From Candidatus Woesearchaeota archaeon (lineage in GTDB: Archaea > Nanobdellota > Nanobdellia > Pacearchaeales > GW2011-AR1), in assembly GCA_964653605.1 (NCBI GenBank), contig CAZZGW010000001.1, positions 1 to 48,594 on the forward strand: DNA of 48,594 nucleotides, in the 5' to 3' direction. Both the position numbers and the translations under genes were made by a program. This document shows positions 9,536-21,783 of the stretch, piece by piece (position 1 is the first letter of the stretch; each line of letters opens with the position of its first letter). The notes below the pieces were generated by a model. It was not told where the DNA came from. It was given only the letters and a program-made list of their open reading frames with translations, and searched no databases.

Positions 9536-9550
9536 CTTTTTCTTCAAGGT

Positions 9551-9588
9551 AAAAAAAGTCCCCGAAGGCTAACTCAAATGCTTGGGGG
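9551..9588 (-). terminator. Imperfect hairpin plus T7 run after ORF 9616..10308
   Basis: CCCCGAAG-n13-CTTGGGG. The A7 run on the plus strand gives T7 after the hairpin on the minus strand. Confidence 0.4.
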
Positions 9589-9615
9589 GCTTTTTGTAAA
9601 TTTCATTAATAGGAA

Positions 9616-10308
9616 TTAGGCGCTGGATGCAAGAATTCCAGCAAGAATCATCCAAATCCCCCACCCTCCTAATGCGGAGTAGATGTTTTTGGACTTTGCC
9701 ACCTTACTATAACATTCTAAATAATCTGGGTCTGAAAACTGATAACCCCTTGGCATTGGATCAATAATAACTGCAGGTATTAATGCAAAAACCCCAAAAA
9801 GCAACCCCCCAAGAAAATATCCTCCAGTACTATGTTTCCTTCTGGCATCCCTTGCTCCCCTTGCACAACTTTCCTGGGGATTCATGGCCATTTCCATTAA
9901 TGGAGCATCCCATTTACTCATAGGATCTTTAAAAGAATAATCTGCCACATCAGAAACCGGAATTTTATAGGTATTCCCATCTTCAGCCTTAAATGTTATG
10001 GTGCAATTTTTCACCTTCTTAATTTCCCCATTGAAATACAAGAAATCATTCGGGTCAACTAAAACTTCTCCCCCTTCCGAAGAGTATATGGAAATGGGTT
10101 CCAAATCATTATAAAAATAATCCTCGGGGGCATTTGCCACTTCTGCAGAATAATCTAAAACAGGATATAGAGCAATCACATCATTCATTTCAAATGATTT
10201 GTCACGATTTTTTGCACTTACATTCCCAACAATTCCCAATAATAAAAGAATGCTAAGGAAAGGTAAAAGATACGTCCACAAACTTCTTACTTTTTTCATT
10301 TTTTTCAT
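9616..10308 (-). CDS. Hypothetical secreted protein with C-terminal membrane anchor(s)
   Basis: Signal peptide ...LLLLGIVGNVSA|KN. C-terminal hydrophobic segments GGLLFGVFALIPAVII and GGWGIWMILAGILASSA. Confidence 0.65.
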   Translation of the reverse strand: MKKMKKVRSLWTYLLPFLSILLLLGIVGNVSAKNRDKSFEMNDVIALYPVLDYSAEVANAPEDYFYNDLEPISIYSSEGGEVLVDPNDFLYFNGEIKKVKNCTITFKAEDGNTYKIPVSDVADYSFKDPMSKWDAPLMEMAMNPQESCARGARDARRKHSTGGYFLGGLLFGVFALIPAVIIDPMPRGYQFSDPDYLECYSKVAKSKNIYSALGGWGIWMILAGILASSA

Positions 10309-10405
10309 GATTTTTTGTTTTTGTTTAACAATAAATTTAGAATTGGTCCTACTTTCTCCTCCTTTCTTGTAAGTTTTAAAACTTTAGTAATTAATTCTAA
10401 TTATC

Positions 10406-10582
10406 TCATTTTCTTTCTCTATGTCGAGAAATAATGATAGAATAACCCCAACACAATAGTACTGCTCCAAAAATCCCTGAAGCATTTGATTCTATTTTAT
10501 CTAAGGCCCAAAAGATTCCCCAGAGGATAAGAAAAATTCCTCCGACCATTATGGCTATCCCACAAGATAGATTGTTTTTCAT
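10406..10582 (-). CDS. Hypothetical 58-aa 2-TM mini-protein (below the ORF-track cut-off)
   Basis: My translation: MKNNLSCGIAIMVGGIFLILWGIFWALDKIESNASGIFGAVLLCWGYSIIISRHRERK. GGAGG 7 nt upstream of the ATG. Confidence 0.55.
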   Translation of the reverse strand: MKNNLSCGIAIMVGGIFLILWGIFWALDKIESNASGIFGAVLLCWGYSIIISRHRERK

Positions 10583-10596
10583 TGTTTACCTCCTTT

Positions 10597-10791
10597 CTAT
10601 GCTGCAAAGCCTACAAAGTTTTTATTTTCTCCAGGTCCCTTTCTTCCTTTCCCAGGACTCTTGTTTTTCCCCCTTTCGAAAGTTTTTCTTCCATGGGCAA
10701 TGAGCCTTGAAATCTTTTCGGCTTGAATATTTGGGTAAATTTCCCTTTTGTCTGAAATATGATTTATACATTGCATAATCATGCCCTCCAT
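10597..10791 (-). CDS. Hypothetical small basic protein
   Basis: 64-aa ORF with a K/R/G-rich C-terminus. No family recognised. Confidence 0.4.
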   Translation of the reverse strand: MEGMIMQCINHISDKREIYPNIQAEKISRLIAHGRKTFERGKNKSPGKGRKGPGENKNFVGFAA

Positions 10792-10856
10792 TGTTAAATT
10801 TGTTAAATTAGCTCATTAAAATAAAACTCTTGTGAAGAGAGTTTTTAGGTAGAGAA

Positions 10857-11987
10857 TTAAGTCTTAGCTCTTTTTTGCATATTTTTTCCCACATCCTCTT
10901 CCAGCTTCTTCTTCACTTTCTCCCACTTTTCGTACTCTAATGCCCTCAGTATGGGAAGCATCTTCAATTCATACGCATCTAACCGGTCATGGTGTTTTCT
11001 TACCCATTTTTGATATCCCATTATAAAGAGAATCGAAATGGCCAACAAAGCACCTCCAAACACTAAGAAAATCCAGGGATTGCCCATTATCCAACACTTA
11101 TGATTTATATACGGCAGAATCTTGCGTATAAACCCAAGTGATTTTTCAGTTGTTAATGCTGAATAATAAATTGTTGAAGCGAGTGTGAGCCATAGGAACA
11201 TATGTGCAAACTTGAAAGTATGCGTCTTTATACCTCCAAAAAAGGTATATATCCTGTAAGAGATATTTGAATTCCCCTCAAAGTGCCTCTTATTTACAAG
11301 ATGGATCCAAGAAGCAACCATCCCAAACTGAATGAATGTTACAACCCAATCCAAGGGGTTTCCATCCCTCGCCGGATTATTAAATGGATGCGTCCGGACC
11401 ATAATAAAAACTGGAAGTACATATGAAAGCCCATATAACCCTGCAAGATACCCAAGGATTTTTGCTCTCCTATTGTGGATTTTTAGCAATCTTTTGCCTT
11501 CACTTATCCTTCCCCAGAAAAGAGTGCCTGTATAACTTACTAAAGGTCCTAATCCCCCTATTGCCATGCCAACTCCAAATGTCAAAGGCATTGCCGCAAT
11601 AATGAATGTAAAAAGATTCCAAGTTATAAACTTAGAAAATATTACAAGACAAACCAACGAACCTGCAAAAAGTAAGTATGGCTTTTGATGCATAAAAGAA
11701 GAACCTCCCCTCCTCATGTAAATGCTAACTATTCTTTCATCTTCTGAAAGAAAGAGTTGTCGCATGAAGTGCATCCAAATTACTCCTAAATTTGAAATGC
11801 CCCATCCAAACCATGCAGAATACCAAAGAAACTTTCCATCCAGTTCTGGATCTCCTTTTTCAATGGCATAGTACAAGAATAAAAAGTTTGAGAGAATATA
11901 AACAAGGAGATAACTTCCCCTTAGGAAGTTTGCAAATCTTCTTCCTCTTTCTGCTTTTTCTTTAATGTATTCTACGGTATGTGTCAT
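10857..11987 (-). CDS. Hypothetical polytopic membrane protein (about 9-10 TM, apparent internal two-fold repeat)
   Basis: 376 aa. Two halves share the pattern DG(K/N)xL(W/D)...W(I/M)H...RI(V/Y)(S/T)...GG...F. C-terminal K/E helix. Confidence 0.65.
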   Translation of the reverse strand: MTHTVEYIKEKAERGRRFANFLRGSYLLVYILSNFLFLYYAIEKGDPELDGKFLWYSAWFGWGISNLGVIWMHFMRQLFLSEDERIVSIYMRRGGSSFMHQKPYLLFAGSLVCLVIFSKFITWNLFTFIIAAMPLTFGVGMAIGGLGPLVSYTGTLFWGRISEGKRLLKIHNRRAKILGYLAGLYGLSYVLPVFIMVRTHPFNNPARDGNPLDWVVTFIQFGMVASWIHLVNKRHFEGNSNISYRIYTFFGGIKTHTFKFAHMFLWLTLASTIYYSALTTEKSLGFIRKILPYINHKCWIMGNPWIFLVFGGALLAISILFIMGYQKWVRKHHDRLDAYELKMLPILRALEYEKWEKVKKKLEEDVGKNMQKRAKT

Positions 11988-12054
11988 CGTCTTTTGGTTT
12001 TAAGAAACCTCTCATTCTTGTAAAGAGAATTTTAGGTTTCAAATTATTGCTAAT

Positions 12055-13512
12055 TCATTTTAACTTTACAACCCTTGCAATCCGCAGATTATCTCCATTG
12101 AAAGAATGGTTCCTATCTAACACTGTCCACTCTCCATACTTATGAATTACAAATCCTACACGAATTACATCATTGAATTTTATTTCATCAAGAGATGAAT
12201 AATACATGAATGGTTTTCCATAGGTGCCGGTTTCATACCATACAACATCACTTTTCCCCTCAAGAACTTTTCCAGTAATGATAATTGCAGAACCATTTGA
12301 CCTCATGAAAATCAATTCAACTTTCCAAGTACTTCTGCTTCCAACATCAAGTTCAACAGCAGTTATTGCGCTTTCAGGAAATTCAGGAGTATAAAATTCA
12401 GCCCAATTTTCCCCATATTTGTGTAATACAACGGTTCCATTTCCTTCAGGAGAATTAATTTCATTTATAGAAATCAATCCTTCTTCAAAAAGATAACCTT
12501 TATCCCAATAGTGATGGCTATTATCTGGATGATTAAAATCATCTTGTATACTTGGAGCTGGAATAAAATTACTGCTTTCACAATCACACCCACACAAGAT
12601 AAAATTTGATATTACTTCATCTGGCTGATCAATTCCATCTCCATTATTATCAAAATACCAAATATACATGATTCCAGAACCCCCATCACAATCCCAATGT
12701 GAAAGGAAATTTATTGCATGAAGAGAAGGAGTTTCCCCATTCAATCCATTTTTAGGAATCTCAAATGCAATGGAATCTACAATAACTCCATCAACCTGGC
12801 TAAGGATAATAAATAAATCATCAAAAATATCAAAGGTTATACTAGGGGTTTGTCCATCTTTACCATTCAATCCATCCTGTCCATCTTCACCATCTTTACC
12901 ATTTGTTCCATGCCAAGTGATAAAACCTCCCTTGTATTCATCTCCTTCAGAAACTTTACCATCCCTATTCATATCCCAATACAGCCTGGTTTCGGTTCCA
13001 TATACTTCAATTTCCCCTGCATTATAAACCACTTCAACATATTCTGGAACAAGACTAAATCCTGACTCTCCTAATGGAATCTGTATTATTAAAGTCCCAA
13101 CAAGCTGATCTCCTTTATAGGATTTAGCAATTATGGAGCCTCCTGGAGAATCATCTGTTGGAGGTAAAGCTTCAAGACTCAAGCTTGCATCTAAACCATT
13201 TTTTCCATCTTTTCCATCCTGTCCATCTTCACCATCTTCACCATTTGTTCCATTAAAGAGAGTAAGACTATTATCAAATTTGTCTCCTTCTGTATAGTTT
13301 AAACTATAATCCATGTCTAAATAATAGCTTGTAGTATAACCAAGTAAAACTCCATCTGTTGAATAAACAGGATCTACTTTAGTTACAGAGGAATAGCCAT
13401 CTTTTCCATCCTGACCATCATCCCCGTCATGTACAAAAATATCTTCTGAGCATGACAACATGGCAAATGAAATTGCCAATAAAATTCCGAACACTTTAAC
13501 AAATGTTTTCAT
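12055..13512 (-). CDS. Secreted lipobox protein with three short collagen-like (G-X-Y) tracts and beta-rich domains
   Basis: MKTFVKVFGILLAISFAMLS|C; DGDDGQDGKDG; NGTNGEDGEDGQDGKDGKNG; HGTNGKDGEDGQDGLNGKDG. Confidence 0.75.
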   Translation of the reverse strand: MKTFVKVFGILLAISFAMLSCSEDIFVHDGDDGQDGKDGYSSVTKVDPVYSTDGVLLGYTTSYYLDMDYSLNYTEGDKFDNSLTLFNGTNGEDGEDGQDGKDGKNGLDASLSLEALPPTDDSPGGSIIAKSYKGDQLVGTLIIQIPLGESGFSLVPEYVEVVYNAGEIEVYGTETRLYWDMNRDGKVSEGDEYKGGFITWHGTNGKDGEDGQDGLNGKDGQTPSITFDIFDDLFIILSQVDGVIVDSIAFEIPKNGLNGETPSLHAINFLSHWDCDGGSGIMYIWYFDNNGDGIDQPDEVISNFILCGCDCESSNFIPAPSIQDDFNHPDNSHHYWDKGYLFEEGLISINEINSPEGNGTVVLHKYGENWAEFYTPEFPESAITAVELDVGSRSTWKVELIFMRSNGSAIIITGKVLEGKSDVVWYETGTYGKPFMYYSSLDEIKFNDVIRVGFVIHKYGEWTVLDRNHSFNGDNLRIARVVKLK

Positions 13513-13547
13513 AATTTCTGAATTTTGGTTTATTTTTATTAAATTAT

Positions 13548-14711
13548 TTATTTGGTTCTATTCAAATTTACTGATAGACAAATTTCTGTTGGAGAAATTA
13601 TATATTTCCCTTCCATCCTATGAAAATGCCAAGCTCTCCCAAATTCGGTTAAAGCCAATGTTCCTGCAACCCCTGCACCAATTCTTAGACCCATTATGGT
13701 GTTTGACTTTCGTTTTGCTGCAGAATTATCAGCAGGATAATCCCTAAACACTGGATGCCCCATTATTTCTGTTGTCCCATAAAGACCAAGCCCAATTCCG
13801 CTAAAAATTAATCCGTTGCGAAAGGACTTTTCTGTTTTTCTCCGATAGGGGTTTTCCCAATATTCTATAAATACATTATAACCTGAAATTACTGGGTTTA
13901 CAGGCATATTAAGCATATCCTGATATGTTACACTCTTCCTTAGAATTTCCCATGTCTGCTCGGGATTATCTTTTTTCATTACAACTTCTATAGAATCATC
14001 TTCAATTCTAGAAACAGGTCCAATTTCCCATTCATACTCTGCGGTTCTCATCCCCTTTTCAAACTCTTCAAAATCAAGCGTTTCTAAAATAGGAACAATA
14101 GAGTCTTTGAAAAAATTCCATTCGGATTCATTAACTCCTGAAAAAATAAACCTCCTAAAAAATTCGAGATAATTCTCAAGACATTCTTCACAATCGGCTT
14201 CAACTTCTATAATTTTGTCTTCAATTGTAACCTGGCTTGGAATATTAGAGGATTTGTTAACCATTGCAGCCTTAACCCTTGTTGCAGGATTTCCATTTTT
14301 TGTAGTCCTAGTAACAATCACTGCTGGTTTCTGATTTTCATACTTATCAAGGTGTTTCTGCTGGACTTCACGAATATCCTCCAAAAATCCGATTTCCATT
14401 TTCCGGTGCTTAACTTCTTTTTTCAGACAATCATTTTCTGCTTCCAATTGAACATTTTTAATCATTAATTCCTGCTTCGCTTTTTGCAGGTCATTGATAG
14501 TTTTAACCATCTTATCTCCTGAACACTTTGAAAAGAATAAGATTATTAATAGAAAAATAAACAGGACAATTGCTCCTGCTCTCCACCATTTCTTATTGGT
14601 GTTGTCAATCTCGCGCTGATTTTTTTCAGCTTTTAATTCCCACTTCAAAATCTCTACTTGCTCCTGAGAAGTCTTACCTTCGAGAATTTTGTTTAATTCA
14701 TCTTTTTTCAT
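13548..14711 (-). CDS. Hypothetical single-pass membrane protein with coiled coil and Gly-rich C-terminus
   Basis: TM WWRAGAIVLFIFLLIILFF. Coiled coil INDLQKAKQELMIKNVQLEAENDCLKKE. C-terminal GLIFSGIGLGLYG / GLRIGAGVAGTLA. Confidence 0.65.
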   Translation of the reverse strand: MKKDELNKILEGKTSQEQVEILKWELKAEKNQREIDNTNKKWWRAGAIVLFIFLLIILFFSKCSGDKMVKTINDLQKAKQELMIKNVQLEAENDCLKKEVKHRKMEIGFLEDIREVQQKHLDKYENQKPAVIVTRTTKNGNPATRVKAAMVNKSSNIPSQVTIEDKIIEVEADCEECLENYLEFFRRFIFSGVNESEWNFFKDSIVPILETLDFEEFEKGMRTAEYEWEIGPVSRIEDDSIEVVMKKDNPEQTWEILRKSVTYQDMLNMPVNPVISGYNVFIEYWENPYRRKTEKSFRNGLIFSGIGLGLYGTTEIMGHPVFRDYPADNSAAKRKSNTIMGLRIGAGVAGTLALTEFGRAWHFHRMEGKYIISPTEICLSVNLNRTK

Positions 14712-14814
14712 GGTTTTTAAAATTTAAATTTTTAATTTGTTTATGTTTTACTTGATTTTTTCAATATATGTTGTTCTGCTTCCATGGTCTGAGCATAATA
14801 TTTTTTCCAAAAGA

Positions 14815-14847
14815 AAGAACCTTCATTAGAAAGTCTAAAGAAGGTTC
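14815..14847 (-). terminator. 9-bp hairpin after ORF 14856..15224
   Basis: AGAACCTTC-n15-GAAGGTTCT. Confidence 0.4.
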
Positions 14848-14855
14848 TGTGATTG

Positions 14856-15224
14856 CTAAGCATAAATTTTATTCTTTGATTCTCCAATAGAATCATTTGT
14901 TATCTCATCTCTCTTCTTCAAAAGATTCTCTCTCCACACTTTTGTTTCAAGGGCAATTCTGAAAATCTCCTGGGACCTGTAATAAAGGTGATCCATTAAA
15001 CTATCCAACATCAAAAGATCCTTTATCATTGGAATTACTATTAAACAAAGATAGGGATCATAATCTACTTCAACAATGAAATCTCTGATTACAGAGTTAT
15101 CCTTTAGAAAGCATGCCCCAATTGAAACTGTAATTGGATCATTTTTTGATTCATGGATAAATTCAATAATCTCTGCATCAGATGCCCCTGATTCGGCAAT
15201 TAAAACTGCTAATTTAGAATTCAT
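14856..15224 (-). CDS. Hypothetical cytosolic protein
   Basis: 122-aa ORF in the co-oriented train. No family recognised. Confidence 0.5.
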   Translation of the reverse strand: MNSKLAVLIAESGASDAEIIEFIHESKNDPITVSIGACFLKDNSVIRDFIVEVDYDPYLCLIVIPMIKDLLMLDSLMDHLYYRSQEIFRIALETKVWRENLLKKRDEITNDSIGESKNKIYA

Positions 15225-15261
15225 ACTTTTCTCTTCCTTTTTAATTAATAATTAATTTTGA

Positions 15262-15597
15262 TTATCGCTTATACATATCTTCTTCAATCCTTTTAGAGGC
15301 ACGATTTTGGATGCCCGCAAAGATTAGCAAAATAGCAAAATGGAGATATGCAATTATACAGCCCACTACAAATCCTTTCCAAATAGAAGGAAATATTTCC
15401 TGATTTCCCATAAAGGAAAAATAAAGGAATGCAAGAACAAAAACAATTACCCCTGAAAAAACCGGGCTTGTGTGGATGCTCTTTATTTTAATCCAAATCC
15501 AGGGAAGCGCCAGATACCAAAATGCTCCTGCAAGATACTCAATTAACCATTTGGTTATCCGAAGGTTAAGCCTTAACTTTACCATAAATTTTTTCAT
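15262..15597 (-). CDS. Hypothetical 3-4 TM membrane protein
   Basis: 111 aa, hydrophobic throughout. Overlaps the upstream ORF by 4 nt. Confidence 0.55.
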   Translation of the reverse strand: MKKFMVKLRLNLRITKWLIEYLAGAFWYLALPWIWIKIKSIHTSPVFSGVIVFVLAFLYFSFMGNQEIFPSIWKGFVVGCIIAYLHFAILLIFAGIQNRASKRIEEDMYKR

Positions 15598-16154
15598 GGC
15601 TCCAAGATTAAAGGTTCAACCTTGGATACAAGCCCATCAAAATCAGAGTCTTTATACAATTTTGACCTGTTTGTCTCTACCAGAACAGAACCAAAACATA
15701 GTGAGAGGTTCTCAAGATGATATGTTACTTCAAAAGTTCCTGCCGGTTCATTATTTTCTTCGGATAAATTTCCTCCAATCAAAAGAACATCCCCCGATAA
15801 TGGAAAGATTATCCAAAATTTATTCCCAAAATTCCAGGAAATAAACCCTCTCCCTTTTTCCTTTTGTGCAAGGTCTTCCAATTCCTTTAAGGTAAACTTC
15901 TTGACATAGGAAGGCCTGTATTCTCCTTCTTCCCAAATTGTTATTAAAACAAGATTCTTACTTGGATCTTCCTTCAAGATTGTGTTGAAGTATAGAGAGG
16001 TTCCATATCCTTGATTTTCAAAGGATTCTGCTTTTCCAACCAAGCAGGGGGACATTTCAAAAACATATTCTCCTAAAATGTTTTTAATTATTTGCGCATC
16101 CGCATTAATTGTGAATGCAATAATTCCTAGCACTACAAGAATTAGATTTTTCAT
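15594..16154 (-). CDS. Hypothetical secreted protein
   Basis: Signal peptide MKNLILVVLGIIAFTINADA|Q. 186 aa. Confidence 0.6.
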   Translation of the reverse strand: MKNLILVVLGIIAFTINADAQIIKNILGEYVFEMSPCLVGKAESFENQGYGTSLYFNTILKEDPSKNLVLITIWEEGEYRPSYVKKFTLKELEDLAQKEKGRGFISWNFGNKFWIIFPLSGDVLLIGGNLSEENNEPAGTFEVTYHLENLSLCFGSVLVETNRSKLYKDSDFDGLVSKVEPLILEP

Positions 16155-16190
16155 CTTTTCTCTTTTTTTGTTTTTAATTAATATTTATGT

Positions 16191-16445
16191 TTATTTTCTA
16201 TATGCTATTTTGTTTTCAATAAACAAAACTAATCTCAACAGAACTAAAACCATAAGGTAAGTAAAGAATATGGCTAATCCAAAAGAGACATTTGGATGTA
16301 TTGACCAGGATTCAAACCCTCCAACTATAAAGTTAAAAAATCCCAAGATTAATTTTCCAATTTTTTGAGAAACCAATCCCAAACTAACAAGCAATGTCCA
16401 CAAGGATACTGCTATCCATAACATTCTAAAGGTTTTTCTTTTCAT
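16191..16445 (-). CDS. Hypothetical 3-TM mini membrane protein
   Basis: 84 aa, hydrophobic. Confidence 0.5.
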   Translation of the reverse strand: MKRKTFRMLWIAVSLWTLLVSLGLVSQKIGKLILGFFNFIVGGFESWSIHPNVSFGLAIFFTYLMVLVLLRLVLFIENKIAYRK

Positions 16446-16457
16446 CTTTTCTTGGAT

Positions 16458-16940
16458 TTAATTACTCGTTGTTATTTTCTTTTTTCCCTCTCTTACACCT
16501 AAAATTGAGGAAACCACAAATCCCCCAAATAAAAGTATTATTGATGATGTGACTACCCAATTAATATGGATTGTTTCAAAGAAACCATTTCCTCTCAGAA
16601 GAGAAGAAATCATAACGCCTAAAAAGATTATTACTATAGCTAAAAAAGGTAAGGCCATTCCCAGTGCCACCTTATTTGCAAATTCATTCCTGAAATTATC
16701 AAAATGAATTCCTTTTTCTTCACAAGATTCATTCAGGAAATCAATAAAGAAAATGCTTCCAAGGAATGCTTCCAAACAACCTACAAAAAAGCCAAACACA
16801 TTCCAAAGGTCTGAAGGTTTTCCTATTTCTCCTAAGAATAATCCTTGAAAGAAATCTATTCTTTTAAACAGCATATAAATTACTGTTGCAAAGAAAAATA
16901 TTGCCAAACTTAGATTTATTATTTTTTCTGTTCTTTTCAC
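16458..16940 (-). CDS. Hypothetical 4-TM membrane protein
   Basis: 160 aa with four hydrophobic segments. Confidence 0.55.
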   Translation of the reverse strand: MKRTEKIINLSLAIFFFATVIYMLFKRIDFFQGLFLGEIGKPSDLWNVFGFFVGCLEAFLGSIFFIDFLNESCEEKGIHFDNFRNEFANKVALGMALPFLAIVIIFLGVMISSLLRGNGFFETIHINWVVTSSIILLFGGFVVSSILGVREGKKKITTSN

Positions 16941-17076
16941 AATTTCTAAGATTTAAATTTAATTATTTATTTTATTTTTCTCTATATCTTGATTCGCTTC
17001 TTACTAAGCGAATTATTATCTCCAATTTAAAGTCAAGCGTATCAAGCCCTGACTCCAACCAACTTCACATGTTGAG

Positions 17077-17313
17077 TTATTCACTTTCATAAATAACTTC
17101 ACATTTTTTATTGAAAACCTTATTAACAACATCCAAAGGAATTGATGAGGCAGATGCCAAGCACCCTTTTTCAAAAGAACCTGTAAAAGCATCCAAGACA
17201 ATTACCTTGTCTCCTACTTTAGATAATTTTCCAACCTCTTGCTTCTTCATTCCATATTGCTCATAATGAACAATAACCCAATCTCCTACATAATTTTTCA
17301 TCTTGTTTTTCAT
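17077..17313 (-). CDS. Hypothetical small cytosolic beta-rich protein
   Basis: 78 aa: GDWVIVHYEQYGMKKQEVGKLSKVGDKVIVLD (SH3/KOW-like feel only). Confidence 0.45.
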   Translation of the reverse strand: MKNKMKNYVGDWVIVHYEQYGMKKQEVGKLSKVGDKVIVLDAFTGSFEKGCLASASSIPLDVVNKVFNKKCEVIYESE

Positions 17314-17364
17314 GATTTATAAAATTTAATAAATATTAATATTGATTTTACTGGATTTTTTACA

Positions 17365-17556
17365 TTATTTTACTTTGTTTCTCTTTTTATCAATCTTATT
17401 GAATATTCTAATCCCTATAAGGATCATAATGAGTAGGATAAGTAATCCAATGGCAATTCCAAAATTGAGGAGTGCTCCATTGATTATTCCGACTATTGCG
17501 ATTATTGCACAAAGGGGAATGGCTGCTTGACGAATAAATTCTCTTAAGGTTTCCAT
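17365..17556 (-). CDS. Hypothetical 2-TM mini membrane protein (first gene of the membrane-protein train)
   Basis: 63 aa. AT-rich TATA-like region and the GAAATACC array lie upstream. Confidence 0.5.
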   Translation of the reverse strand: METLREFIRQAAIPLCAIIAIVGIINGALLNFGIAIGLLILLIMILIGIRIFNKIDKKRNKVK

Positions 17557-17611: not shown

Positions 17612-17687
17612 ACAGGGTATTTCCTGTGTAATTTCAGTGTATTCCGAGGTTATTTCGGGGTATTTCATGTGTGAAATAAGTGTATTT
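17612..17687 (-). promoter_or_regulatory. Phased array of 5 GAAATA(C)C boxes upstream of the membrane-protein train
   Basis: Minus strand reads catGAAATACCccGAAATAACCtcgGAATACACtGAAATTACacagGAAATACCctg, box spacing 9-12 nt, about 55-130 nt upstream of ATG 17556. Confidence 0.5.
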
Positions 17688-17875
17688 GTAATTCTATTGA
17701 TAGAAATTCTTAAGCACTCTAAAGCGAGTTGCTTCTTTTGTATCTTGTGGTTGTTAATCCAACTTCAAGACTAAGAGTTCAATGCGTTACATAACCTATT
17801 ATTAATCTTACCTTGTTGTTCCTTTCGTTTTATTGATTGATTGGAAATTTGGTTTGACTAATGTGCGGGGGTGTA

Positions 17876-19963
17876 TTAATTGATGTTCTCTAAGGGTTGT
17901 GTTTGTGATTTATTTAATGAATTTGATAACCTGATGAACTTTTTCCAGCCGGTTTTACTTTTTTGTTCTTCTACTGCTACTACTTCTTTTTCCATTAGTT
18001 TATTCTTGAGAGAATTCCCTTTTCTTGCTGAGAATCCCATGTTCTTGTAAAGTTCAACAGTACTGTAATTGTGATTTGGAAATTCCATTAAGAAACTTAA
18101 AAATATTTTTTCTTCATCTTCAAAGTTATCTAAGAATGCTTGATCTAGCTTTTCTTGATTTTCTTGTATTTCTTTTTCTGTATCTATTTCTGAAAATTCT
18201 ACAACTGGCTGATTTAATTGTTCACTTATTACTTTGCTCATTACAATTAAAACATCTTCAGAAGTGTAACCATTTTTGTTTACTCCAGATTCTAATACTT
18301 TTTCTATGTTCTTTAAGTCATGGCCTTTTGCCATTTCTTCTTTTACAAAACTAAAAAGCACTCCTTGAGAGTATTCTGGATCATAAACTTCATCTTCAGT
18401 TATTCCAGAGATTTCACTTTCCTGTGTATTTTGAGGTATTTCACCTATTTCACTGTGTGGGTGTTCCAGGGTTCTTTCATGTTCTTTCAATTTAGAAATA
18501 CCCCATTTACTATGTTCCGCTTCCTGTTCAATTGTTATTGCATCCATAAATTCTGGATCTTCCCTTTCGGCTTCAATTCCTTGCATTATTGCATCTGCTC
18601 TTGAAGTTATTTTCTCGTCTGAAATCGATTGTTCTGTTAGTGCCATATAGGGGGTTTTAACTAAGAATGGGAGGGTATATCTTTCTGATAACTTAACAAC
18701 TGCAGACCCAACTTTCAACTGGGAGAATGCTTCTTTCTTTTGGTGTAATTGGGTTATGGAGCTTATATCGTAAATATCTTGGGGTAATTGCTGTTGGAAT
18801 GCTACGTGGCATGCGCTATTTCCCTTTACTGTATCTGATAACTTTGAAATATGTTGGTCTAAACAAATAAGGCTAGTCCCATATTCCCTCATTTCCCTAT
18901 AAGCCATATCTGTAATTGATTCTGAGATAAAATTTGTTTTATCTTTTAAGAAAACATTGTGTGCTTCATCAACTAAAATTGCATAATCAAAATCCCCATT
19001 AGATTTGTGTGGGGAGGCTTTCTTTTGTTTGTAAATATATGTTAAAACGAACTCGCAAAAGAATTTCTTTTCTATGTTTCCTAAGGAATTTAACTCGAAT
19101 ACAGCCCTTTTATTGAATAAATCTTCAACAGACAAGCTTTTCTTACCTTCATAATTTATTACGTTTCCAAATGCTCCAAAAGTTAAAACTGAGGCTATTC
19201 TTAATGCACTTTCAAGCCACTCAGACTCTCTTCCTCTTGCATCTCTTGCTTTTTGTTCAAGCATTTTCTTAACATGTAACCAATTAGGATAATGTCTTTT
19301 TTCTTCTGGAAGTTTGTAAATATCCCATCCTTCAAAAATCTCATCAAGAGTTTCTAAAAGAATTTTATGAACACCAAATGAAGCTGAGAAACTTTCAGTA
19401 AGCAAATCTGCTAAAACATTAATCCATTCTTTTGGTGCAACTCCTTTTGGAGGAACATTAATATTTGTTTTGAATAAATTTGCAACTGAATCATTTCCAA
19501 TTGTAAAAACCATTAAACTTGGATCCACATTCACAAGGGGACGGAAACTTCTTTTCCAATCAAAGACTAAAAAAGGTTTGTCTTTTCCAATAAAGTTTTC
19601 AAGAATATTAAATGCAAAATTTGTTTTACCAGAACCACTCATACCAGTAATACAAACGTGTCTTGGCCAATCTTTTTCATTTAATCCAAAAGTGTATAAT
19701 TCTTTATCTGCATAAATTATATTCCCAAGAGGGTATTCCCCTATTATTTCCGATTGTTTTGGAGGTTCTAAAAGTAAACTTTGATCTAAAAGTTTGTTAA
19801 GATTTTTTTGATAAAGTAAAGTTATAACTTGCAAAATTTCATTTTTTTCTTCCAATGAATTTGCTACAGCGTATTGGGCATAAATTCTATCAATTTTTTC
19901 TCCAAAAAAAGGTTTTAATTTTCTACACATATCTTCAACTGTTAGACTTCTTTGATTCATCAT
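17876..19963 (-). CDS. FtsK/HerA-superfamily P-loop ATPase with acidic linker and C-terminal winged-helix domain
   Basis: Walker A RHVCITGMSGSGKTN. FLVFDWKRSF. Walker B YAILVDEAHNVF. REYGTSLICLDQH. C-terminal IFLSFLMEFPNHNYSTVELYKNMGFSARKGNSLKNKLMEKEVV. Confidence 0.8.
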   Translation of the reverse strand: MMNQRSLTVEDMCRKLKPFFGEKIDRIYAQYAVANSLEEKNEILQVITLLYQKNLNKLLDQSLLLEPPKQSEIIGEYPLGNIIYADKELYTFGLNEKDWPRHVCITGMSGSGKTNFAFNILENFIGKDKPFLVFDWKRSFRPLVNVDPSLMVFTIGNDSVANLFKTNINVPPKGVAPKEWINVLADLLTESFSASFGVHKILLETLDEIFEGWDIYKLPEEKRHYPNWLHVKKMLEQKARDARGRESEWLESALRIASVLTFGAFGNVINYEGKKSLSVEDLFNKRAVFELNSLGNIEKKFFCEFVLTYIYKQKKASPHKSNGDFDYAILVDEAHNVFLKDKTNFISESITDMAYREMREYGTSLICLDQHISKLSDTVKGNSACHVAFQQQLPQDIYDISSITQLHQKKEAFSQLKVGSAVVKLSERYTLPFLVKTPYMALTEQSISDEKITSRADAIMQGIEAEREDPEFMDAITIEQEAEHSKWGISKLKEHERTLEHPHSEIGEIPQNTQESEISGITEDEVYDPEYSQGVLFSFVKEEMAKGHDLKNIEKVLESGVNKNGYTSEDVLIVMSKVISEQLNQPVVEFSEIDTEKEIQENQEKLDQAFLDNFEDEEKIFLSFLMEFPNHNYSTVELYKNMGFSARKGNSLKNKLMEKEVVAVEEQKSKTGWKKFIRLSNSLNKSQTQPLENIN
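18408..18463 (-). repeat. Intragenic GTGAAAT(A/C) box array inside the ATPase linker-coding region
   Basis: Minus strand reads GTGAAATAGGTGAAATACCtcAAAATACacaggaaaGTGAAATC and encodes HSEIGEIPQNTQESEIS. Confidence 0.5.
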
Positions 19964-20406
19964 TTTAATTCCCCTTCCCTATCAAGAATTTTTTGAAGTT
20001 TAGAGGGAACGAAATACTTTACATCCATTGTTTTAAGATATTCTTCAGAATTTCTAATTGAACTATCCACCTCATCAAAAGAAGCACTTTTACTAAAATC
20101 TCCTTGAGCCCTTCTTCTTTCTGCAACTTGTAGAGGATTTACGTGAGTAACGACTCCTGCGTGGAAAGGAGCTTTACCCTCGGCAATATGTTTTGAGAAC
20201 CAACCAACAAGATATCCTCTTTCTGGTTTTTCAGATTCTTGAAGCCCTTCAAGAACTTCTTCTGAACCGTATCTTTGAACAAACTCATCTTTAGTCCTTT
20301 CCAAAGCTACATAAAGCGCTGTTCCAAGAGAATTTGAAGTTCCACTTGATTCTACGGATTTTATTTTTCCTTCCATTTCTCTGTAAAATCTTGTTTTTGC
20401 TTTCAT
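19960..20406 (-). CDS. Hypothetical protein, translationally coupled to the ATPase (4-nt overlap)
   Basis: 148 aa. No family recognised. Confidence 0.6.
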   Translation of the reverse strand: MKAKTRFYREMEGKIKSVESSGTSNSLGTALYVALERTKDEFVQRYGSEEVLEGLQESEKPERGYLVGWFSKHIAEGKAPFHAGVVTHVNPLQVAERRRAQGDFSKSASFDEVDSSIRNSEEYLKTMDVKYFVPSKLQKILDREGELK

Positions 20407-20873
20407 TATGCTGCTTTAGCAAAATCCCCTTGAGAGTATCTTACTAATTGATTTACTTTTTCTTGAGGAATAGTTTTTCTTAATCCTTTATCTAGAATTT
20501 TCAAAAGGTTAGTTGCGTTTTCTTTTAACTCAACTTCAAGGGATTCTTTCAATTCTTTCTCAGTTGGATTGCTAAAATATTCTCTTGTCTTAACAGTTGC
20601 TTTGTAAAAATTATCTACACCATTGAACATTTCTAATGACTTTATCAACGCAGATTCATTAGCAATTCTTACTAGGTTGCTTGTATCTTCAACTTCCTCT
20701 CCAGTGTATTGTTTTCTCATTTCCAGGTCATATCCAAGAGTCATTCCGGTGAATATTTCTGCAGTTTGTAAATTGAAGCATCCTCTAGCTTCTGCTTTAA
20801 GGTATTTCCCATATTCTTCAGCATTCATTTCCTTTGTTTCTTTATCTGATTTCATCTTAATTTTCCTCATCAA
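20406..20873 (-). CDS. Hypothetical protein (operon member)
   Basis: 155 aa. 1-nt overlap with the downstream ORF. Confidence 0.6.
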   Translation of the reverse strand: MMRKIKMKSDKETKEMNAEEYGKYLKAEARGCFNLQTAEIFTGMTLGYDLEMRKQYTGEEVEDTSNLVRIANESALIKSLEMFNGVDNFYKATVKTREYFSNPTEKELKESLEVELKENATNLLKILDKGLRKTIPQEKVNQLVRYSQGDFAKAA

Positions 20874-21309
20874 GCAATTTATTTATTGAATTTACTCTTT
20901 CTTCTTTTTCACTTAATTCTTGTTCTTGGGACCTAAGTTCTTTCTTAAGTAAAGCTACATCTTTCCAAGAATCAATTTTTTCTTTCATTTGAATTTCAGA
21001 GATTTCTATCTTTTTTGTTCTAAGTAAGTTCTTTTCTTTCATCAAATCCGCTTTTTCAAACTCAGTAGTATTTTCATTTTCTAAAAGGAAGTTATTAATT
21101 TCAGTCTTAACTGACTCTCCTTCTTTAATGAAGTTTTCGCTAAGCTCTTCTCTTTCATTTATCAAAATTCCTATGTCTTTGACAGAGTCTTTCAAGGCAT
21201 TAATTTTGGCTAGGCCTATCTTTGTCAGATCAGAGCCCGAGCTAGTTATTTCAGGTTTTTCAAAGCTTATTACGGGTTTTCCACCCTTTAAAAGATCACT
21301 TATTTCCAT
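20857..21309 (-). CDS. Hypothetical coiled-coil protein (first gene of the ATPase operon)
   Basis: 150 aa, K/E/L heptad-like. TTTATAAAG about 25 nt upstream of the ATG. Confidence 0.6.
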   Translation of the reverse strand: MEISDLLKGGKPVISFEKPEITSSGSDLTKIGLAKINALKDSVKDIGILINEREELSENFIKEGESVKTEINNFLLENENTTEFEKADLMKEKNLLRTKKIEISEIQMKEKIDSWKDVALLKKELRSQEQELSEKEERVNSINKLLDEEN

Positions 21310-21458: not shown

Positions 21459-21499
21459 AAATTCTGGTGCTATCCCCCTCCAACCCAAAAAAACAGAAT

Positions 21500-21583
21500 G
21501 CGGAGTTGCCGGAGTGGTCAAACGGGACGGACTCAAAATCCGTTAGCTTAGTGCTTACACAGGTTCGAACCCTGTACTCCGCA
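21500..21583 (+). tRNA. tRNA-Leu (anticodon CAA)
   Basis: Acceptor GCGGAGT/ACTCCGC, anticodon stem ACGGA/TCCGT with loop CTCAAAA, long variable arm, T-arm ACAGG TTCGAAC CCTGT. Confidence 0.85.
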
Positions 21584-21756
21584 TATATTCTTTTAGATGG
21601 TGATAATAAATATAAAGGAAATTTTTCTATTTATGAAATATGGGAAGATTAAATGGCTTGGAAACAAGAATCTTTGGGGAGCTTATTTCTGAAGAAAATC
21701 CGGAAAGATATCTTGAAAAACAAGCTCTTTTAAAGAAAATTTAAGGAAAAATATAA

Positions 21757-21783
21757 GTGAAATACCCGAAATACCTTGAAATC
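21757..21783 (+). promoter_or_regulatory. GAAATACC box array upstream of ORF 21834..22109
   Basis: GTGAAATACCcGAAATACCttGAAATC followed by TATATTAAAAAA. Inverted relative to the 17.6-kb array, so it has the same orientation relative to its downstream gene. Confidence 0.5.

What the first reader, a model, noticed from the sequence alone, without database searches (positions are those of the whole stretch)
17876..21309. Four-gene operon ending in an FtsK/HerA-type ATPase fused to a C-terminal winged helix
Three unknown proteins (150, 155 and 148 aa) overlap one another and the 695-aa ATPase by 17, 1 and 4 nt, which implies translational coupling. The ATPase has clear Walker A (GMSGSGKT), Walker B (ILVDEAH) and HerA/FtsK-like downstream motifs (LICLDQH). 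It lacks both membrane anchors and a HAS barrel. Instead it has a ~170-aa acidic linker and a C-terminal wHTH. A motor plus sequence-reading wHTH recalls the FtsK gamma domain, but in a different context. I know of no described system with this partner set; candidates are DNA translocation or packaging, conjugation-like transfer, or a defence module.
Basis: partly seen in the sequence, partly recalled or inferred. Interest (0 to 1): 0.72.

Follow-up and report, generated by a model that had tools for sequence, protein, structure and literature searches.

The report
Archaeal DNA motor with docking repeats
In tiny DPANN archaea, a conserved two-gene unit encodes a ring-type DNA-pumping ATPase with a DNA-reading tail, and just behind the gene lies a conserved row of 8-base repeats spaced one DNA turn apart that is probably its docking site, a layout otherwise known from bacterial DNA-transfer and chromosome-segregation pumps.

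Summary
The four ORFs, their tight junctions, the Walker motifs, the missing membrane anchor and HAS barrel, the acidic linker and the C-terminal winged helix are all real. It is not a conserved four-gene system. Across 83 related loci, all Woese-/Pacearchaeota-type MAGs, only the first protein (A, a 150-aa helical hairpin) always accompanies the ATPase. B is an ORFan. C occurs in 5 other loci. Both sit in a hypervariable slot between A and the ATPase that holds 0-6 unrelated small genes.

New finding: the 300-450 nt after the ATPase stop carry arrays of GAAATACC, median 4 sites and about 50-fold enriched. Their spacings are multiples of 10.5 bp. The arrays follow the ATPase in any genomic context and are absent from empty sites.

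The block (A, slot, ATPase, array, variable island) is an insertion next to tRNA-Leu(CAA). It splits the universal S13-S4-S11-RpoD | L18e-L13-S9 operon about 10 kb from oriC. Distant A+ATPase-wHTH pairs lie in integrase/Cdc6-bearing mobile elements.

Best reading (confidence 0.45): a HerA-type hexameric dsDNA motor that its winged helices load onto the phased repeats, analogous to Streptomyces TraB-clt and FtsK-KOPS. Binding and the biological role are inferred, not shown.

The parts
20857..21309 (-). Protein A, 150 aa. It is the conserved partner: a disordered N-terminal tail (aa 1-27, motif PEITG/S) followed by an antiparallel two-helix hairpin (aa 28-77 and 83-149) with an invariant W-K-D...L..E.R motif.
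   Evidence: tblastn finds it on the same strand upstream of the ATPase in 79 of 83 loci at 43-80% identity. It has 286 database homologues and no Pfam match. The AF2 model has pLDDT 83. Foldseek gives nothing significant. Distant homologues sit upstream of 30-38%-identical ATPases in L086 (4e-10) and L084 (2e-6).
20406..20855 (-). Protein B, 149 aa from ATG 20855 (155 aa if the TTG at 20873 is used). It is an ORFan occupying the variable slot.
   Evidence: It has no homologue in the 83 loci and only itself among 5.8e9 protein clusters. No family matches.
19960..20406 (-). Protein C, 148 aa. A sporadic slot gene and a possible degenerate CHAP/NlpC-P60-like Cys-His fold. The window copy has Ser where the relatives have the Cys. 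It carries a conserved C-terminal YF(I/V)PSKLQKIL motif.
   Evidence: Homologues occur in the same slot in L023, L029, L037, L041 and L055. The only hints are sub-threshold: PcsB E=0.23, LytE E=1.5 and Pfam CHAP 0.057.
17876..19963 (-). HerA-type (DUF87) ATPase, 695 aa. Segments: N-terminal 4-helix domain (aa 1-75; 19739-19963); RecA-like core with helical insertion (aa 76-445; 18629-19738; Walker A 19622-19645, Walker B 18959-18982); acidic region (aa 446-615; 18119-18628) that includes a folded 3-helix domain (aa 529-585; 18209-18379).
17918..18118 (-). C-terminal winged helix-turn-helix (aa 616-682, pI 9.3) with a near-invariant recognition helix S-x-R-K-G-[NT]-x-x-K and wing G-W-K-K.
   Evidence: AF2 secondary structure and pLDDT; invariant columns; weak MarR/TrmB/DnaD_N/HTH_36 matches. 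The same wHTH profile hits 74 of 100 full-length family representatives.
17616..17666 (-). Array of five 8-bp direct repeats at 10-12 nt spacing: GAAATACC, GAAATAAC, GGAATACA, GAAATTAC, GAAATACC. It lies 209-260 nt after the ATPase stop and about 60 nt before the next start codon. It is the proposed docking site of the wHTH.
   Evidence: Sequence. The motif occurs 10 times in the window against 1.75 expected. Across loci the 7-mer is 50-fold enriched and present in 61 of 76 loci. Density is 1.46 sites per locus in the first 250 nt after the stop against about 0.02 elsewhere, with strand bias 100:14. Spacings are multiples of 10.5 bp. The array follows the ATPase in non-syntenic contexts too: 17/20 and 33/35, against 3.9% of background windows.
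17708..17780 (-). Conserved non-coding block between the ATPase stop and the array, shared with the 77%-identical locus L004. A larger subclade has IR1 (CACTTTGTTGATTTAAACAATGTG) and IR2 (CTGTCG..CAGACA) in the equivalent place.
   Evidence: Gap sequences; alignment and pair counts; no Rfam match.
21759..21782 (+). Second, short GAAATACC-N1-GAAATACC-N2-GAAAT cluster on the other side of the operon, beyond tRNA-Leu and about 50 nt upstream of ORF 21834-22109 and rpl18e.
   Evidence: In about 10 other loci a single site lies 13-40 nt before the A alignment start.
21499..21584 (+). tRNA-Leu(CAA), the conserved boundary of the inserted block. A 25-nt copy of its 5' end lies at 21425-21449.
   Evidence: tRNA-Leu(CAA) lies within 900 nt upstream of A (mostly 200-300 nt) in 36 of 67 loci. 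The empty sites L100 and L165 keep the tRNA between rpoD and rpl18e.
7650..17556 (-). Variable 'dark-matter' island downstream of the array: small membrane or secreted proteins, a collagen-repeat protein and unknowns. It is not conserved between loci. It is bounded by rpoD (6785-7486, +). The whole block 7487-22213 interrupts S13-S4-S11-RpoD | L18e-L13-S9.
   Evidence: No sequence conservation of downstream ORFs. rpoD lies 2.2-10.4 kb after the ATPase stop on the opposite strand in 19 loci. Pfam annotation of the flanks. Occupied and empty sites.

Best explanation
The conserved unit has three parts. The first is protein A, a coiled-coil hairpin. The second is a HerA-type ring ATPase with a flexible acidic arm that ends in a winged helix. 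The third is a cis-acting array of 8-bp GAAATACC repeats, phased one helical turn apart, immediately 3' of the ATPase gene.

Proposed mechanism. The basic winged helices of the (inferred) hexamer bind the phased repeats on one face of the DNA. This recruits and orients the ring next to its own gene. ATP hydrolysis then drives directional translocation of double-stranded DNA from that site. A, which is made in stoichiometric coupling, acts as an adaptor or regulator of the ring. The changing slot genes are lineage-specific accessories.

The closest working model is Streptomyces TraB with its clt repeats, which performs sequence-directed dsDNA mobilisation. A second model is FtsK gamma reading KOPS. 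The likely biological output is mobilisation or segregation of the adjacent, origin-proximal DNA.

What is shown: the gene and partner conservation, the fold class, the wHTH, the array with its phasing and its linkage to the gene, the insertion status, and the mobile-element relatives. What is inferred: hexamer formation, wHTH-repeat binding, translocation, the role of A, and the biological outcome.
For: 1. The motor belongs to the HerA/FtsK/VirB4 class. Walker A, Walker B, the REYG motif and Q370 are invariant. Pfam DUF87 scores 6e-9. Foldseek gives DndH-C 6e-11, SsoHerA 4e-10, VirB4 8e-8 and TrwB 4e-5.

2. The C-terminal wHTH is confidently modelled and basic, and its recognition helix is near-invariant. 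The ATPase-wHTH fusion is ancient, present in 74 of 100 representatives.

3. GAAATACC arrays are confined to the 500 nt after the stop: 1.46 and 0.57 sites per 250 nt against about 0.02 elsewhere. There are a median of 4 sites per locus. The spacing periodicity is 10.55-10.65 bp, with R=0.54-0.67 against a null maximum of 0.27. That points to protein binding on one face of B-DNA.

4. The array travels with the ATPase and not with the neighbours: 17/20 loci in other contexts and 33/35 syntenic loci, against 3.9% of background windows. It is absent from empty sites.

5. The motif is constant where the recognition helix is constant. A subclade with RKGT instead of RKGN keeps the 8-mer but arranges it as inverted pairs.

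6. One distant module (L085) has a different 7-mer, GTTATCC, four times at 31/20/32-nt spacing beside the operon.

7. Precedent. TraB is an FtsK-like hexamer whose C-terminus recognises direct 8-bp repeats in the clt region of its plasmid. Its accessory spd genes are small, diverse and have overlapping stop/start codons (PMC4447253). SpoIIIE and FtsK read skewed octamers (PMC3936747). The HerA-like TdtA hexamer, in a 14-kb element inserted in a tRNA gene, is required for DNA donation (the pushing step of transjugation) (PMC5365140).

8. The block is an insertion next to tRNA-Leu(CAA), with occupied and empty sites. Distant A+ATPase pairs sit with integrases, Cdc6-like initiators and AbiE.
Against: No binding, oligomerisation or translocation was tested. 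The link between the wHTH and the repeats rests on co-location and conservation only.

Neither the ATPase nor any conserved partner has a membrane anchor, and the downstream membrane proteins are not conserved. An export route is therefore missing. TraB, FtsK and VirB4/CedB all have or recruit membrane components.

The island in the window has no integrase, relaxase or replication gene. The module evolves like a vertically inherited core gene: r=0.62 against L13+S9, and 63% mean identity against 60-67% for the ribosomal proteins. That fits a cellular housekeeping role better than an active mobile element.

The arrays lie 30-150 nt upstream of the next gene on the same strand, which is also where a transcription-factor site would lie.

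The recognition-helix variant (N to T) does not change the motif, so there is no true protein-DNA covariation. Only 1 of 4 distant modules shows an adjacent repeat array.
Confidence: 0.45

Rival explanations
1. ATP-dependent transcription regulator. The wHTH-ATPase, or an unrelated factor, binds the phased repeats as an upstream activating or operator site. It then controls the promoter of the first island gene and, through the occasional site before A, its own operon. This would be functionally analogous to bacterial enhancer-binding proteins, which combine a hexameric ATPase, a C-terminal HTH and tandem upstream sites.
For: The arrays end 30-150 nt before the next same-strand start codon and are followed by an AT-rich TATA-like stretch. 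The second cluster in the window sits about 50 nt upstream of ORF 21834. Single sites lie just before A in about 10 loci. The inverted pairs in the RKGT clade look like classical dimer operators. The bEBP comparison is from general knowledge.
Against: The gene downstream of the array differs in almost every lineage, whereas the array and the ATPase are conserved together. A dedicated activator with no conserved target is odd. HerA/FtsK-class rings are DNA or substrate translocases and are not known as transcription activators. The distance from the last site to the start codon is not fixed.
Confidence: 0.2
2. Captured replication module. The ATPase is an initiator-helicase in the style of SV40 large T or papillomavirus E1 (origin-binding domain plus hexameric motor). 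The phased repeats with the adjacent AT-rich DNA are iterons of a second origin derived from a mobile element.
For: The repeats are direct, helically phased, next to the gene of the putative binder and followed by AT-rich DNA. [quoted passage not shown] The wHTH weakly resembles DnaD_N.
Against: A canonical oriC lies only about 10 kb away, with cdc6, inverted ORB-like elements and a DUE. No HerA-class protein is known as a replicative initiator. The module has no primase or polymerase partner. GC skew in the window simply follows coding strand and gives no origin signal at the array.
Confidence: 0.12
3. Chromosome partition or segregation device. The origin-proximal repeat array acts as a centromere-like site, the wHTH-ATPase as the centromere-binding motor and A as a coiled-coil adaptor.
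For: The array is about 13.5 kb and the A gene about 10 kb from cdc6/oriC in the window. The same arrangement occurs in L125, L132 and L155. Centromeres of type I-III partition systems are arrays of short phased repeats next to the par operon (general knowledge; see also PMC5120986). The module is inherited like a core gene.
Against: Empty sites exist in equally close relatives, so it is dispensable or relocated. Roughly a third of loci are not in this neighbourhood. Partition NTPases are ParA-, actin- or tubulin-like, not ring translocases.
Confidence: 0.1
4. Anti-virus defence system. A HerA-type ATPase scaffold works with variable effector genes in the slot, as in SIR2-HerA, DUF4297-HerA, Dnd or TdpAB.
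For: The best structural matches include DndH-C, SIR2-HerA, DUF4297-HerA and TdpAB. PADLOC gives mad8 at 4e-10 and weak HerA models. The slot content is hypervariable. C may be a degenerate hydrolase.
Against: About 35 loci have no slot gene at all, so they have no effector. Fixed chromosomal position, a ribosomal-protein-like evolutionary rate and single-site synteny are unlike defence islands. No nuclease, Sir2 or methylase domain was detected. A defence model does not explain the phased array.
Confidence: 0.08
5. Remnant provirus. The ATPase is a packaging ATPase of an FtsK/HerA-type membrane-containing virus, the array is a pac site, and the island holds the structural genes.
For: PHROG 2666 'terminase large subunit' scores 1e-12 and Pfam Zot 6.5e-6. 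The island encodes a collagen-repeat, tail-fibre-like protein and many small membrane proteins. The block is inserted next to a tRNA.
Against: No relative was found in 2.9 million IMG/VR contigs. No capsid, portal or integrase gene was detected. The island genes are not conserved while the ATPase is. Inheritance looks vertical. At 695 aa with a wHTH, the protein is unlike the 200-250-aa A32/P9-type packaging ATPases (general knowledge).
Confidence: 0.05

Closest known systems
Streptomyces TraB with its clt locus (dsDNA conjugation of plasmids and AICEs)
   Same: A hexameric FtsK/HerA-superfamily motor with a C-terminal wHTH. Direct 8-bp repeats lie next to the motor gene as the cis site. Neighbouring accessory genes are small, diverse and hard to match between elements, with overlapping stop/start codons. 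Elements insert at tRNA genes (PMC4447253, PMC5365140).
   Different: The motor here is of HerA/DUF87 type, not FtsK type; Pfam FtsK_SpoIIIE gives E=0.08. It has no N-terminal membrane domain. It has a conserved coiled-coil partner A. It sits in an archaeal chromosome without rep, int or a traR-like regulator, and it is inherited like a core gene. Binding to the repeats has not been shown.
FtsK gamma domain reading KOPS; SpoIIIE reading SRS
   Same: The logic is the same: a ring translocase is oriented by a C-terminal wHTH that reads an 8-bp word (PMC3936747).
   Different: KOPS and SRS are dispersed and skewed along the whole chromosome. Here the 8-mer is clustered in one phased array, with about 0.02 sites per 250 nt elsewhere. 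No sequence similarity to FtsK gamma was detected. There is no membrane anchor. XerA is a neighbour, but it stays in place at empty sites.
HerA-NurA DNA-end resection helicase
   Same: The closest sequence and fold class: DUF87, the REYG/QxP-region motifs and a helical insertion domain.
   Different: There is no HAS barrel. No NurA, Mre11 or Rad50 domain was detected in the four operon proteins or in the neighbouring ORFs scanned. The NCBIfam HerA models score 16-20 bits against a cut-off of 800. The wHTH and the cis array are additions.
VirB4 / CedB-CedD ATPases of conjugation and the crenarchaeal Ced DNA-import system
   Same: The same superfamily. The best NCBIfam hit is CedD (1e-14) and the VirB4 C-terminal domain gives a Foldseek TM-score of 0.65. 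These systems transport DNA.
   Different: The score is 54 bits against a cut-off of 600. No VirB2/3/6- or CedA-like membrane partner is conserved. CedB and CedD lack a wHTH and a repeat array (PMC11868833).
Thermus TdtA (ICEth1)
   Same: A HerA-like hexamer without an obvious membrane domain, encoded in a 14-kb insertion at a tRNA gene, and required for DNA donation (the pushing step of transjugation) (PMC5365140).
   Different: TdtA has a NurA and a restriction enzyme as operon partners and no DNA-binding domain. No cis repeats are known for it.
arCOG00280-type 'HerA-like helicases' of archaeal dark-matter islands and integrated elements
   Same: An uncharacterised HerA-like ATPase at the edge of islands of small fast-evolving genes (PMC4158269). 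Distant relatives of this family lie with integrase and Cdc6-like genes.
   Different: Assignment to that arCOG was not tested. The Woese/Pacearchaeota branch is fixed at one chromosomal site and has a defined partner and a cis array, neither of which is described there.

Membership tests
HerA (NurA-associated bipolar helicase) | N-terminal HAS beta-barrel | tested here: not met
   In the AF2 model aa 1-75 are four helices, followed by only a two-strand hairpin (aa 77-94) before the P-loop.
HerA (NurA-associated bipolar helicase) | RecA-like core with Walker A/B and a helical insertion, matching the HerA/DUF87 profile | tested here: met
   Pfam DUF87 6e-9, above its cut-off. Foldseek SsoHerA 4e-10.
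HerA (NurA-associated bipolar helicase) | Curated equivalog score and an adjacent NurA nuclease gene | tested here: not met
   NCBIfam HerA_Thermprot scores 20 bits and HerA_antiphage 16 bits, both against a cut-off of 800. The operon partners A, B and C have no NurA or other nuclease match.
FtsK/SpoIIIE | Match to the FtsK_SpoIIIE motor profile | tested here: not met
   Pfam PF01580 gives E=0.08 and 12.8 bits against a cut-off of 24, covering the P-loop only.
FtsK/SpoIIIE | N-terminal transmembrane anchor | tested here: not met
   The highest 19-residue hydropathy score is 1.13, so there is no TM segment.
FtsK/SpoIIIE | C-terminal gamma wHTH homologous to FtsK gamma, reading a dispersed and skewed 8-mer | tested here: inconclusive
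   A wHTH is present, but a profile search of the PDB finds no FtsK gamma. The 8-mer is clustered and not dispersed within +-10 kb. Genome-wide skew could not be tested.
TraB-clt type dsDNA conjugation (Streptomyces plasmids/AICE) | Ring motor with a C-terminal wHTH and direct 8-bp repeats beside the motor gene | tested here: met
   The architecture and the arrays are present. Binding of the wHTH to the repeats is not testable with these tools.
TraB-clt type dsDNA conjugation (Streptomyces plasmids/AICE) | Membrane-associated motor on a self-replicating or integrating element (rep, int, regulator traR) | tested here: not met
   There is no TM segment. No rep, int or GntR-type gene was found among the operon and the larger island ORFs of the window that were scanned. 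XerA lies outside the block and remains at empty sites.
VirB4 / CedB / CedD | Curated model score and conserved membrane partners (VirB3/VirB6/pilin or CedA/A1/A2) | tested here: not met
   CedD scores 54 bits against a cut-off of 600. The downstream ORFs are not conserved between loci.
FtsK/HerA-type viral packaging ATPase (PRD1 P9 / A32-like) | Linked jelly-roll capsid gene and presence in viral genomes | tested here: not met
   No relative in IMG/VR. BFVD matches are phage HerA-like or conjugal proteins, not packaging enzymes. No capsid match in the island.
HerA-based defence systems (SIR2-HerA, DUF4297-HerA, Dnd/Tdp, MADS) | Adjacent effector (Sir2, nuclease, PT-sensing module) and a PADLOC model match | tested here: not met
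   Only partial PADLOC hits: mad8 4e-10 and HerA models 6e-8 to 6e-4. About 35 loci have no gene between A and the ATPase.

The most novel reading that the evidence does not exclude
Woese- and Pacearchaeota may carry a chromosomally fixed, TraB/clt-like dsDNA mobilisation system. In this reading the HerA-type ring is loaded by its winged helices on the phased GAAATACC array. It then pumps the flanking DNA directionally out of the cell, to a sister cell or to or from a host. That would make the downstream 'dark-matter' island of surface proteins hypermobile. It would be the first DNA-transfer machine proposed for DPANN archaea and a mechanistic source of their variable islands.
Probability: 0.15. 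Interest if true: 0.9.

Novelty: new variant of a known kind. Interest (0 to 1): 0.68.

Why it matters
DPANN archaea are ultra-small cells, many of them host-dependent, and most of their conserved genes of unknown function have no testable hypothesis attached. This work defines a compact three-part unit: a partner protein, a motor with a reader domain, and an exact 8-bp cis site with helical phasing. The unit is present in at least 192 species representatives and sits about 10 kb from the replication origin.

That turns an anonymous 'DUF87 protein' into a direct experiment: does the winged helix bind GAAATACC, and does the ring then move DNA? If it does, it would be the first sequence-directed DNA pump described in Archaea. 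It would bear on how these organisms segregate, exchange or acquire DNA, and on why hypervariable islands of surface proteins sit where they do.

It also documents a clean occupied/empty insertion polymorphism inside one of the most conserved archaeal operons.

Tried and rejected
- Sequence search of the ATPase against the PDB found nothing significant.
- Foldseek of the A model returned only generic helical hairpins with E>0.28 (Vipp1/PspA, YscO-like, PI3K iSH2). No assignment was made.
- BFVD returned phage HerA-like proteins only.
- The IMG/VR scan found no relatives.
- Rfam found no family in the gap, at either gathering or E<=1 thresholds.
- Conservation of the 12 downstream island genes: essentially none. 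I therefore dropped the idea of a conserved Ced/T4SS-like membrane apparatus.
- Covariation between recognition helix and motif: the RKGN and RKGT clades use the same 8-mer and differ only in its arrangement. This is no proof of binding.
- Search for arrays beside distant modules: clear in L085 only, 1 of 4.
- RNA-structure reading of the gap: IR1 is invariant and so uninformative. IR2 has compensatory changes in only 2-3 sequences. The direct 10.5-bp phasing of the main array argues for DNA-level function.
- Strand of the first downstream ORF, as a test of the promoter-element rival: inconclusive, because spurious antisense ORFs fall in the gap.
- GC skew as an origin test: it follows coding strand only.
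- tRNA-flanking att repeats around the 14-kb block: none found. The only copy of the tRNA 5' end lies 74 nt from the gene.
- Literature searches for a prior description in DPANN or Woesearchaeota found none.

Full report
**1. The observation**

One search lists four minus-strand ORFs at the stated coordinates: A 20857-21309 (150 aa), B 20406-20873 (155 aa, TTG start), C 19960-20406 (148 aa) and the ATPase 17876-19963 (695 aa). The overlaps are 17, 1 and 4 nt. The 17-nt figure comes from taking the longest ORF. The public gene call for B starts at ATG 20855, 1 nt after the stop of A. The other junctions are TAATG and ATGA.

Walker A (GMSGSGKT), Walker B (ILVDEAH) and LICLDQH are present and invariant in 23 homologues. 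None of the four proteins has a hydrophobic segment. Residues 446-615 are acidic (pI 4.3) and residues 616-682 are basic (pI 9.3).

The AlphaFold model (pLDDT 74) shows four N-terminal helices and then only a beta-hairpin before the P-loop, so there is no HAS barrel. It shows a RecA-like core with a helical insertion, a folded three-helix domain at 529-585 inside the 'linker', and a canonical winged helix at 616-679. The description is therefore correct.

**2. What class of ATPase**

- Pfam gives DUF87/HerA-central (6e-9) and Zot (6.5e-6). FtsK_SpoIIIE is below threshold.
- The best NCBIfam model is CedD at 54 bits against a cut-off of 600. HerA models score 16-20 bits against 800.
- PADLOC gives mad8 and weak HerA models.
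- PHROGs gives a 'terminase large subunit' family at 1e-12.
- Foldseek against the PDB gives DndH-C, Sulfolobus HerA, SIR2-HerA, DUF4297-HerA, TdpAB, VirB4 and then TrwB.

The protein is a member of the HerA/VirB4/FtsK superfamily and closest to HerA/DUF87. It is a member of none of the characterised families.

**3. Who has it, and which partners are real**

The ATPase has at least 979 homologues. The best 120 are 54-85% identical over the full length, come from DPANN MAGs and sit on contigs up to 290 kb. A scan of one genome per GTDB species found relatives in 192 species, all labelled Woese-, Pace- or Nanoarchaeota-type.

In 83 loci fetched with flanks:
- Protein A is found upstream on the same strand in 79. 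Three of the four loci without it are cut off too close upstream of the ATPase to show it.
- B is found in none.
- C is found in 4 by tblastn. Clustering adds a fifth, L041, so C occurs in 5 other loci.

The space between A and the ATPase is a slot. In about 35 loci A abuts or overlaps the ATPase. In the others, 1-6 tightly packed and mostly unrelated small ORFs are inserted. The closest relatives, at 85% and 77% ATPase identity, have an empty slot. B has no homologue in 5.8 billion protein clusters.

C belongs to a small family with conserved N-C-I-G-T-A, G-Y-L-V-W and H-x-G-V motifs and a C-terminal YFIPSKLQKIL. It gives only sub-threshold hints of a CHAP/NlpC-P60 fold, and the window copy has Ser in place of the Cys.

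A is a disordered tail plus a long antiparallel two-helix hairpin (pLDDT 83) with no informative structural neighbour.

The A+ATPase pair is ancient. ATPases only 30-38% identical (294 clusters below 1e-30) are again preceded by an A homologue in L086 (4e-10) and L084 (2e-6). A matching wHTH occurs in 74 of 100 full-length representatives. Those distant pairs lie among integrases, Cdc6/Orc1-like genes, AbiE toxin-antitoxin genes and a second DUF87 ATPase, which is a mobile-element context.

**4.

After the ATPase stop there is always a 300-450-nt non-coding gap. In the window it contains GAAATACC-cc-GAAATAAC-ctc-GGAATACA-ct-GAAATTAC-acag-GAAATACC (17616-17666, minus strand).

Across loci:
- The 7-mer GAAATAC is 50-fold enriched in the 450 nt after the stop and is present in 61 of 76 loci.
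- The exact 8-mer occurs 1.46 times per locus in the first 250 nt, 0.57 times in the next 250 nt, and about 0.02 times per 250 nt everywhere else within +-10 kb. The strand bias is 100:14.
- The median is 4 sites per locus, with consensus T-GAAATACC-Y.
- Distances between sites pile up at 10-11, 21, 31-32, 42, 53, 63-64, 74, 84-85, 95-96 and 105-106 nt. The best-fitting period is 10.55-10.65 bp, with R 0.54-0.67 against a null maximum of 0.27. Related loci are not independent, but the spacings used differ from locus to locus.

Phasing at the helical repeat of B-DNA points to proteins bound on one face of the duplex, not to an RNA.

The array goes with the ATPase and not with the neighbours. 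At least 2 sites occur in 33 of 35 syntenic loci and 17 of 20 loci in other contexts, against 3.9% of background windows. Empty sites lack it.

A subclade of 19 loci has the recognition helix RKGT instead of RKGN. It keeps the same 8-mer but arranges it as inverted pairs, GAAATACC-N8-10-GGTATTTC.

A large subclade has two further conserved inverted repeats bracketing the first site. One of them has a few compensatory changes. Rfam finds nothing in the gap.

One distant module (L085) has a different 7-mer, GTTATCC, four times at 31/20/32-nt spacing.

**5. Genomic setting**

In the window, S13-S4-S11-RpoD lies at 5149-7486 (+) and L18e-L13-S9 at 22214-23399 (+). These are two halves of an operon that, from general knowledge, is contiguous in most archaea. 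They are separated by 14.7 kb carrying, in antisense, tRNA-Leu(CAA), A, B, C, the ATPase, the array and a roughly 10-kb island of unconserved small membrane or secreted proteins.

rpoD is found after the ATPase on the opposite strand in 19 loci, at 2.2-10.4 kb. L18e is upstream in 42 loci. tRNA-Leu(CAA) lies within 900 nt upstream of A, mostly 200-300 nt, in 36 of 67 loci.

Cdc6-centred metagenome loci with equally similar Cdc6 (about 80%) show both states. Occupied sites are L125, L132 and L155. Empty sites are L100, L120 and L165: they have an uninterrupted S11-RpoD…L18e-L13-S9, and L100 and L165 keep tRNA-Leu(CAA) in the gap between rpoD and rpl18e. The block is therefore an insertion/deletion unit.

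It nevertheless evolves like a vertically inherited core gene. Pairwise identities of the ATPase correlate with those of L13+S9 (r=0.62, Mantel p=0.001) as well as L13 correlates with S9 (r=0.56). Mean identity is 63% for the ATPase and 55% for A, against 60-67% for the ribosomal proteins.

The window also contains oriC. Orc1/Cdc6 (31529-32743) is followed by PolD DP1 and DP2. It is preceded by inverted ORB-like elements around an AT-rich stretch. The module is about 10 kb away.

No relatives occur in IMG/VR.

**6. Mechanism**

The best-supported reading is a sequence-directed DNA motor. The steps below are inferred, not shown.
- The basic winged helices, on long acidic arms, of a ring of ATPase subunits dock on the phased repeats beside their own gene.
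- This loads and orients the ring.
- ATP hydrolysis moves double-stranded DNA.
- A, which is translationally coupled and always present, is an adaptor or regulator.
- The slot genes are lineage-specific accessories.

The nearest working precedent is Streptomyces TraB. It is an FtsK-like hexamer whose C-terminus recognises direct 8-bp repeats in the clt region of its plasmid. It is accompanied by small, diverse spd genes with overlapping stop/start codons (PMC4447253). FtsK and SpoIIIE read octamers in the same way (PMC3936747). The HerA-like TdtA, in a 14-kb insertion at a tRNA gene, is required for DNA donation in Thermus (PMC5365140).

What is missing for a transfer function is any conserved membrane component, and any integrase or replication gene in the island.

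Rivals:
- The array is an upstream regulatory site for the next promoter. It does lie 30-150 nt before the next gene, but that gene is different in nearly every lineage.
- The module is a captured initiator-helicase with iterons.
- It is an origin-proximal centromere.
- It is a HerA-based defence system. About 35 loci have no possible effector.
- It is a provirus remnant. There is no viral relative and no capsid gene.

**7. Novelty and verdict**

I found no description of this family, its partner or its repeat array. [quoted passage not shown]

It is a new variant of a known kind, a FtsK/HerA-superfamily motor with a sequence-reading winged helix. It differs in having a HerA-type core, no anchor, a new obligate partner, a defined phased cis array, and a fixed origin-proximal insertion site in DPANN archaea.

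Its 'four-gene system' is reduced to a two-gene-plus-site core with a variable slot. Its motor-plus-reader intuition is strengthened. The function remains inferred.

Noticed in passing
window 31040-31420 and 31529-38393: This is the chromosomal replication origin. Orc1/Cdc6 (31529-32743) is followed by PolD small (32749-34320) and large (34884-38393) subunits. It is preceded by inverted ORB-like elements (31118-31150 and 31380-31415; TTTC-N4-GGAAA plus a C/G string) that flank a very AT-rich stretch with an (ATT)n run.
   Followed up: partly
window 25894-25916: An ORB-like copy (AATATTCCCCCTCCTGGTTGTCT, 78% identical to 31118-31140) lies just upstream of the xerA gene (24954-25856, minus strand). 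XerA and the adjacent 182-aa 'recombinase-domain' protein are syntenic in about 38 loci.
   Followed up: no
window 21425-21449; L165 about 1366-1425: A 25-nt copy of the 5' end of tRNA-Leu(CAA) lies 74 nt before the gene. In the empty-site locus L165 the 3' end of the same tRNA is duplicated about 55 nt downstream. These may be scars of integrase activity at this tRNA.
   Followed up: partly
window 1759-3195: An RNA gene cluster: tRNA-Gly, tRNA-Leu(AAG), 5S rRNA (3081-3195) and a 127-nt Rfam tRNA hit at 2751-2877 that ARAGORN misses and that probably contains an intron. A free-standing LAGLIDADG_3 ORF lies at 1841-2665. A LAGLIDADG ORF also sits between rpl18e and A in L001.
   Followed up: no
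window 26849-27808 and 31467-31480: A 24-nt element, TTGTTCACTTAGGTTAGGTTAxTT, is repeated three times 460 and 476 nt apart in the gene-poor stretch between xerA and oriC. A related copy lies just before cdc6.
   Followed up: no
window 12055-13512 (minus strand): A 485-aa island protein has collagen-like G-x-y repeat blocks. It gives Pfam Collagen and PHROG tail-fibre-like hits through the repeats only.
   Followed up: no
window 9398-9523 and 10388-10513: A 126-nt direct repeat (84% identity, 990 nt apart) lies upstream of two island genes (185 aa and 230 aa). This suggests a local tandem duplication of a gene together with its promoter.
   Followed up: no
window 18435-18442; equivalent position in about 16 loci: GAAATACC also occurs in-frame inside the ATPase linker coding region, where it encodes E-I-P. 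This produces a minor peak 500-750 nt before the stop in the positional histogram. It is unclear whether it is an extra binding site or a coincidence of a conserved peptide.
   Followed up: no
window 3434-3631 (minus strand): rpoN (Rpb10) is displaced from its usual place after rps9. In 6 other loci it lies about 9-10 kb downstream of the ATPase on the same strand, so the ribosomal/RNAP gene cluster is rearranged beyond the insertion.
   Followed up: partly
L086 1-1470 and 7583-10043: A 44%-GC contig carries two divergent DUF87 ATPases of this family in one integrase/AbiE/Cdc6-like element. One has an A homologue. The other has a 194-aa Cys-rich upstream protein.
   Followed up: partly
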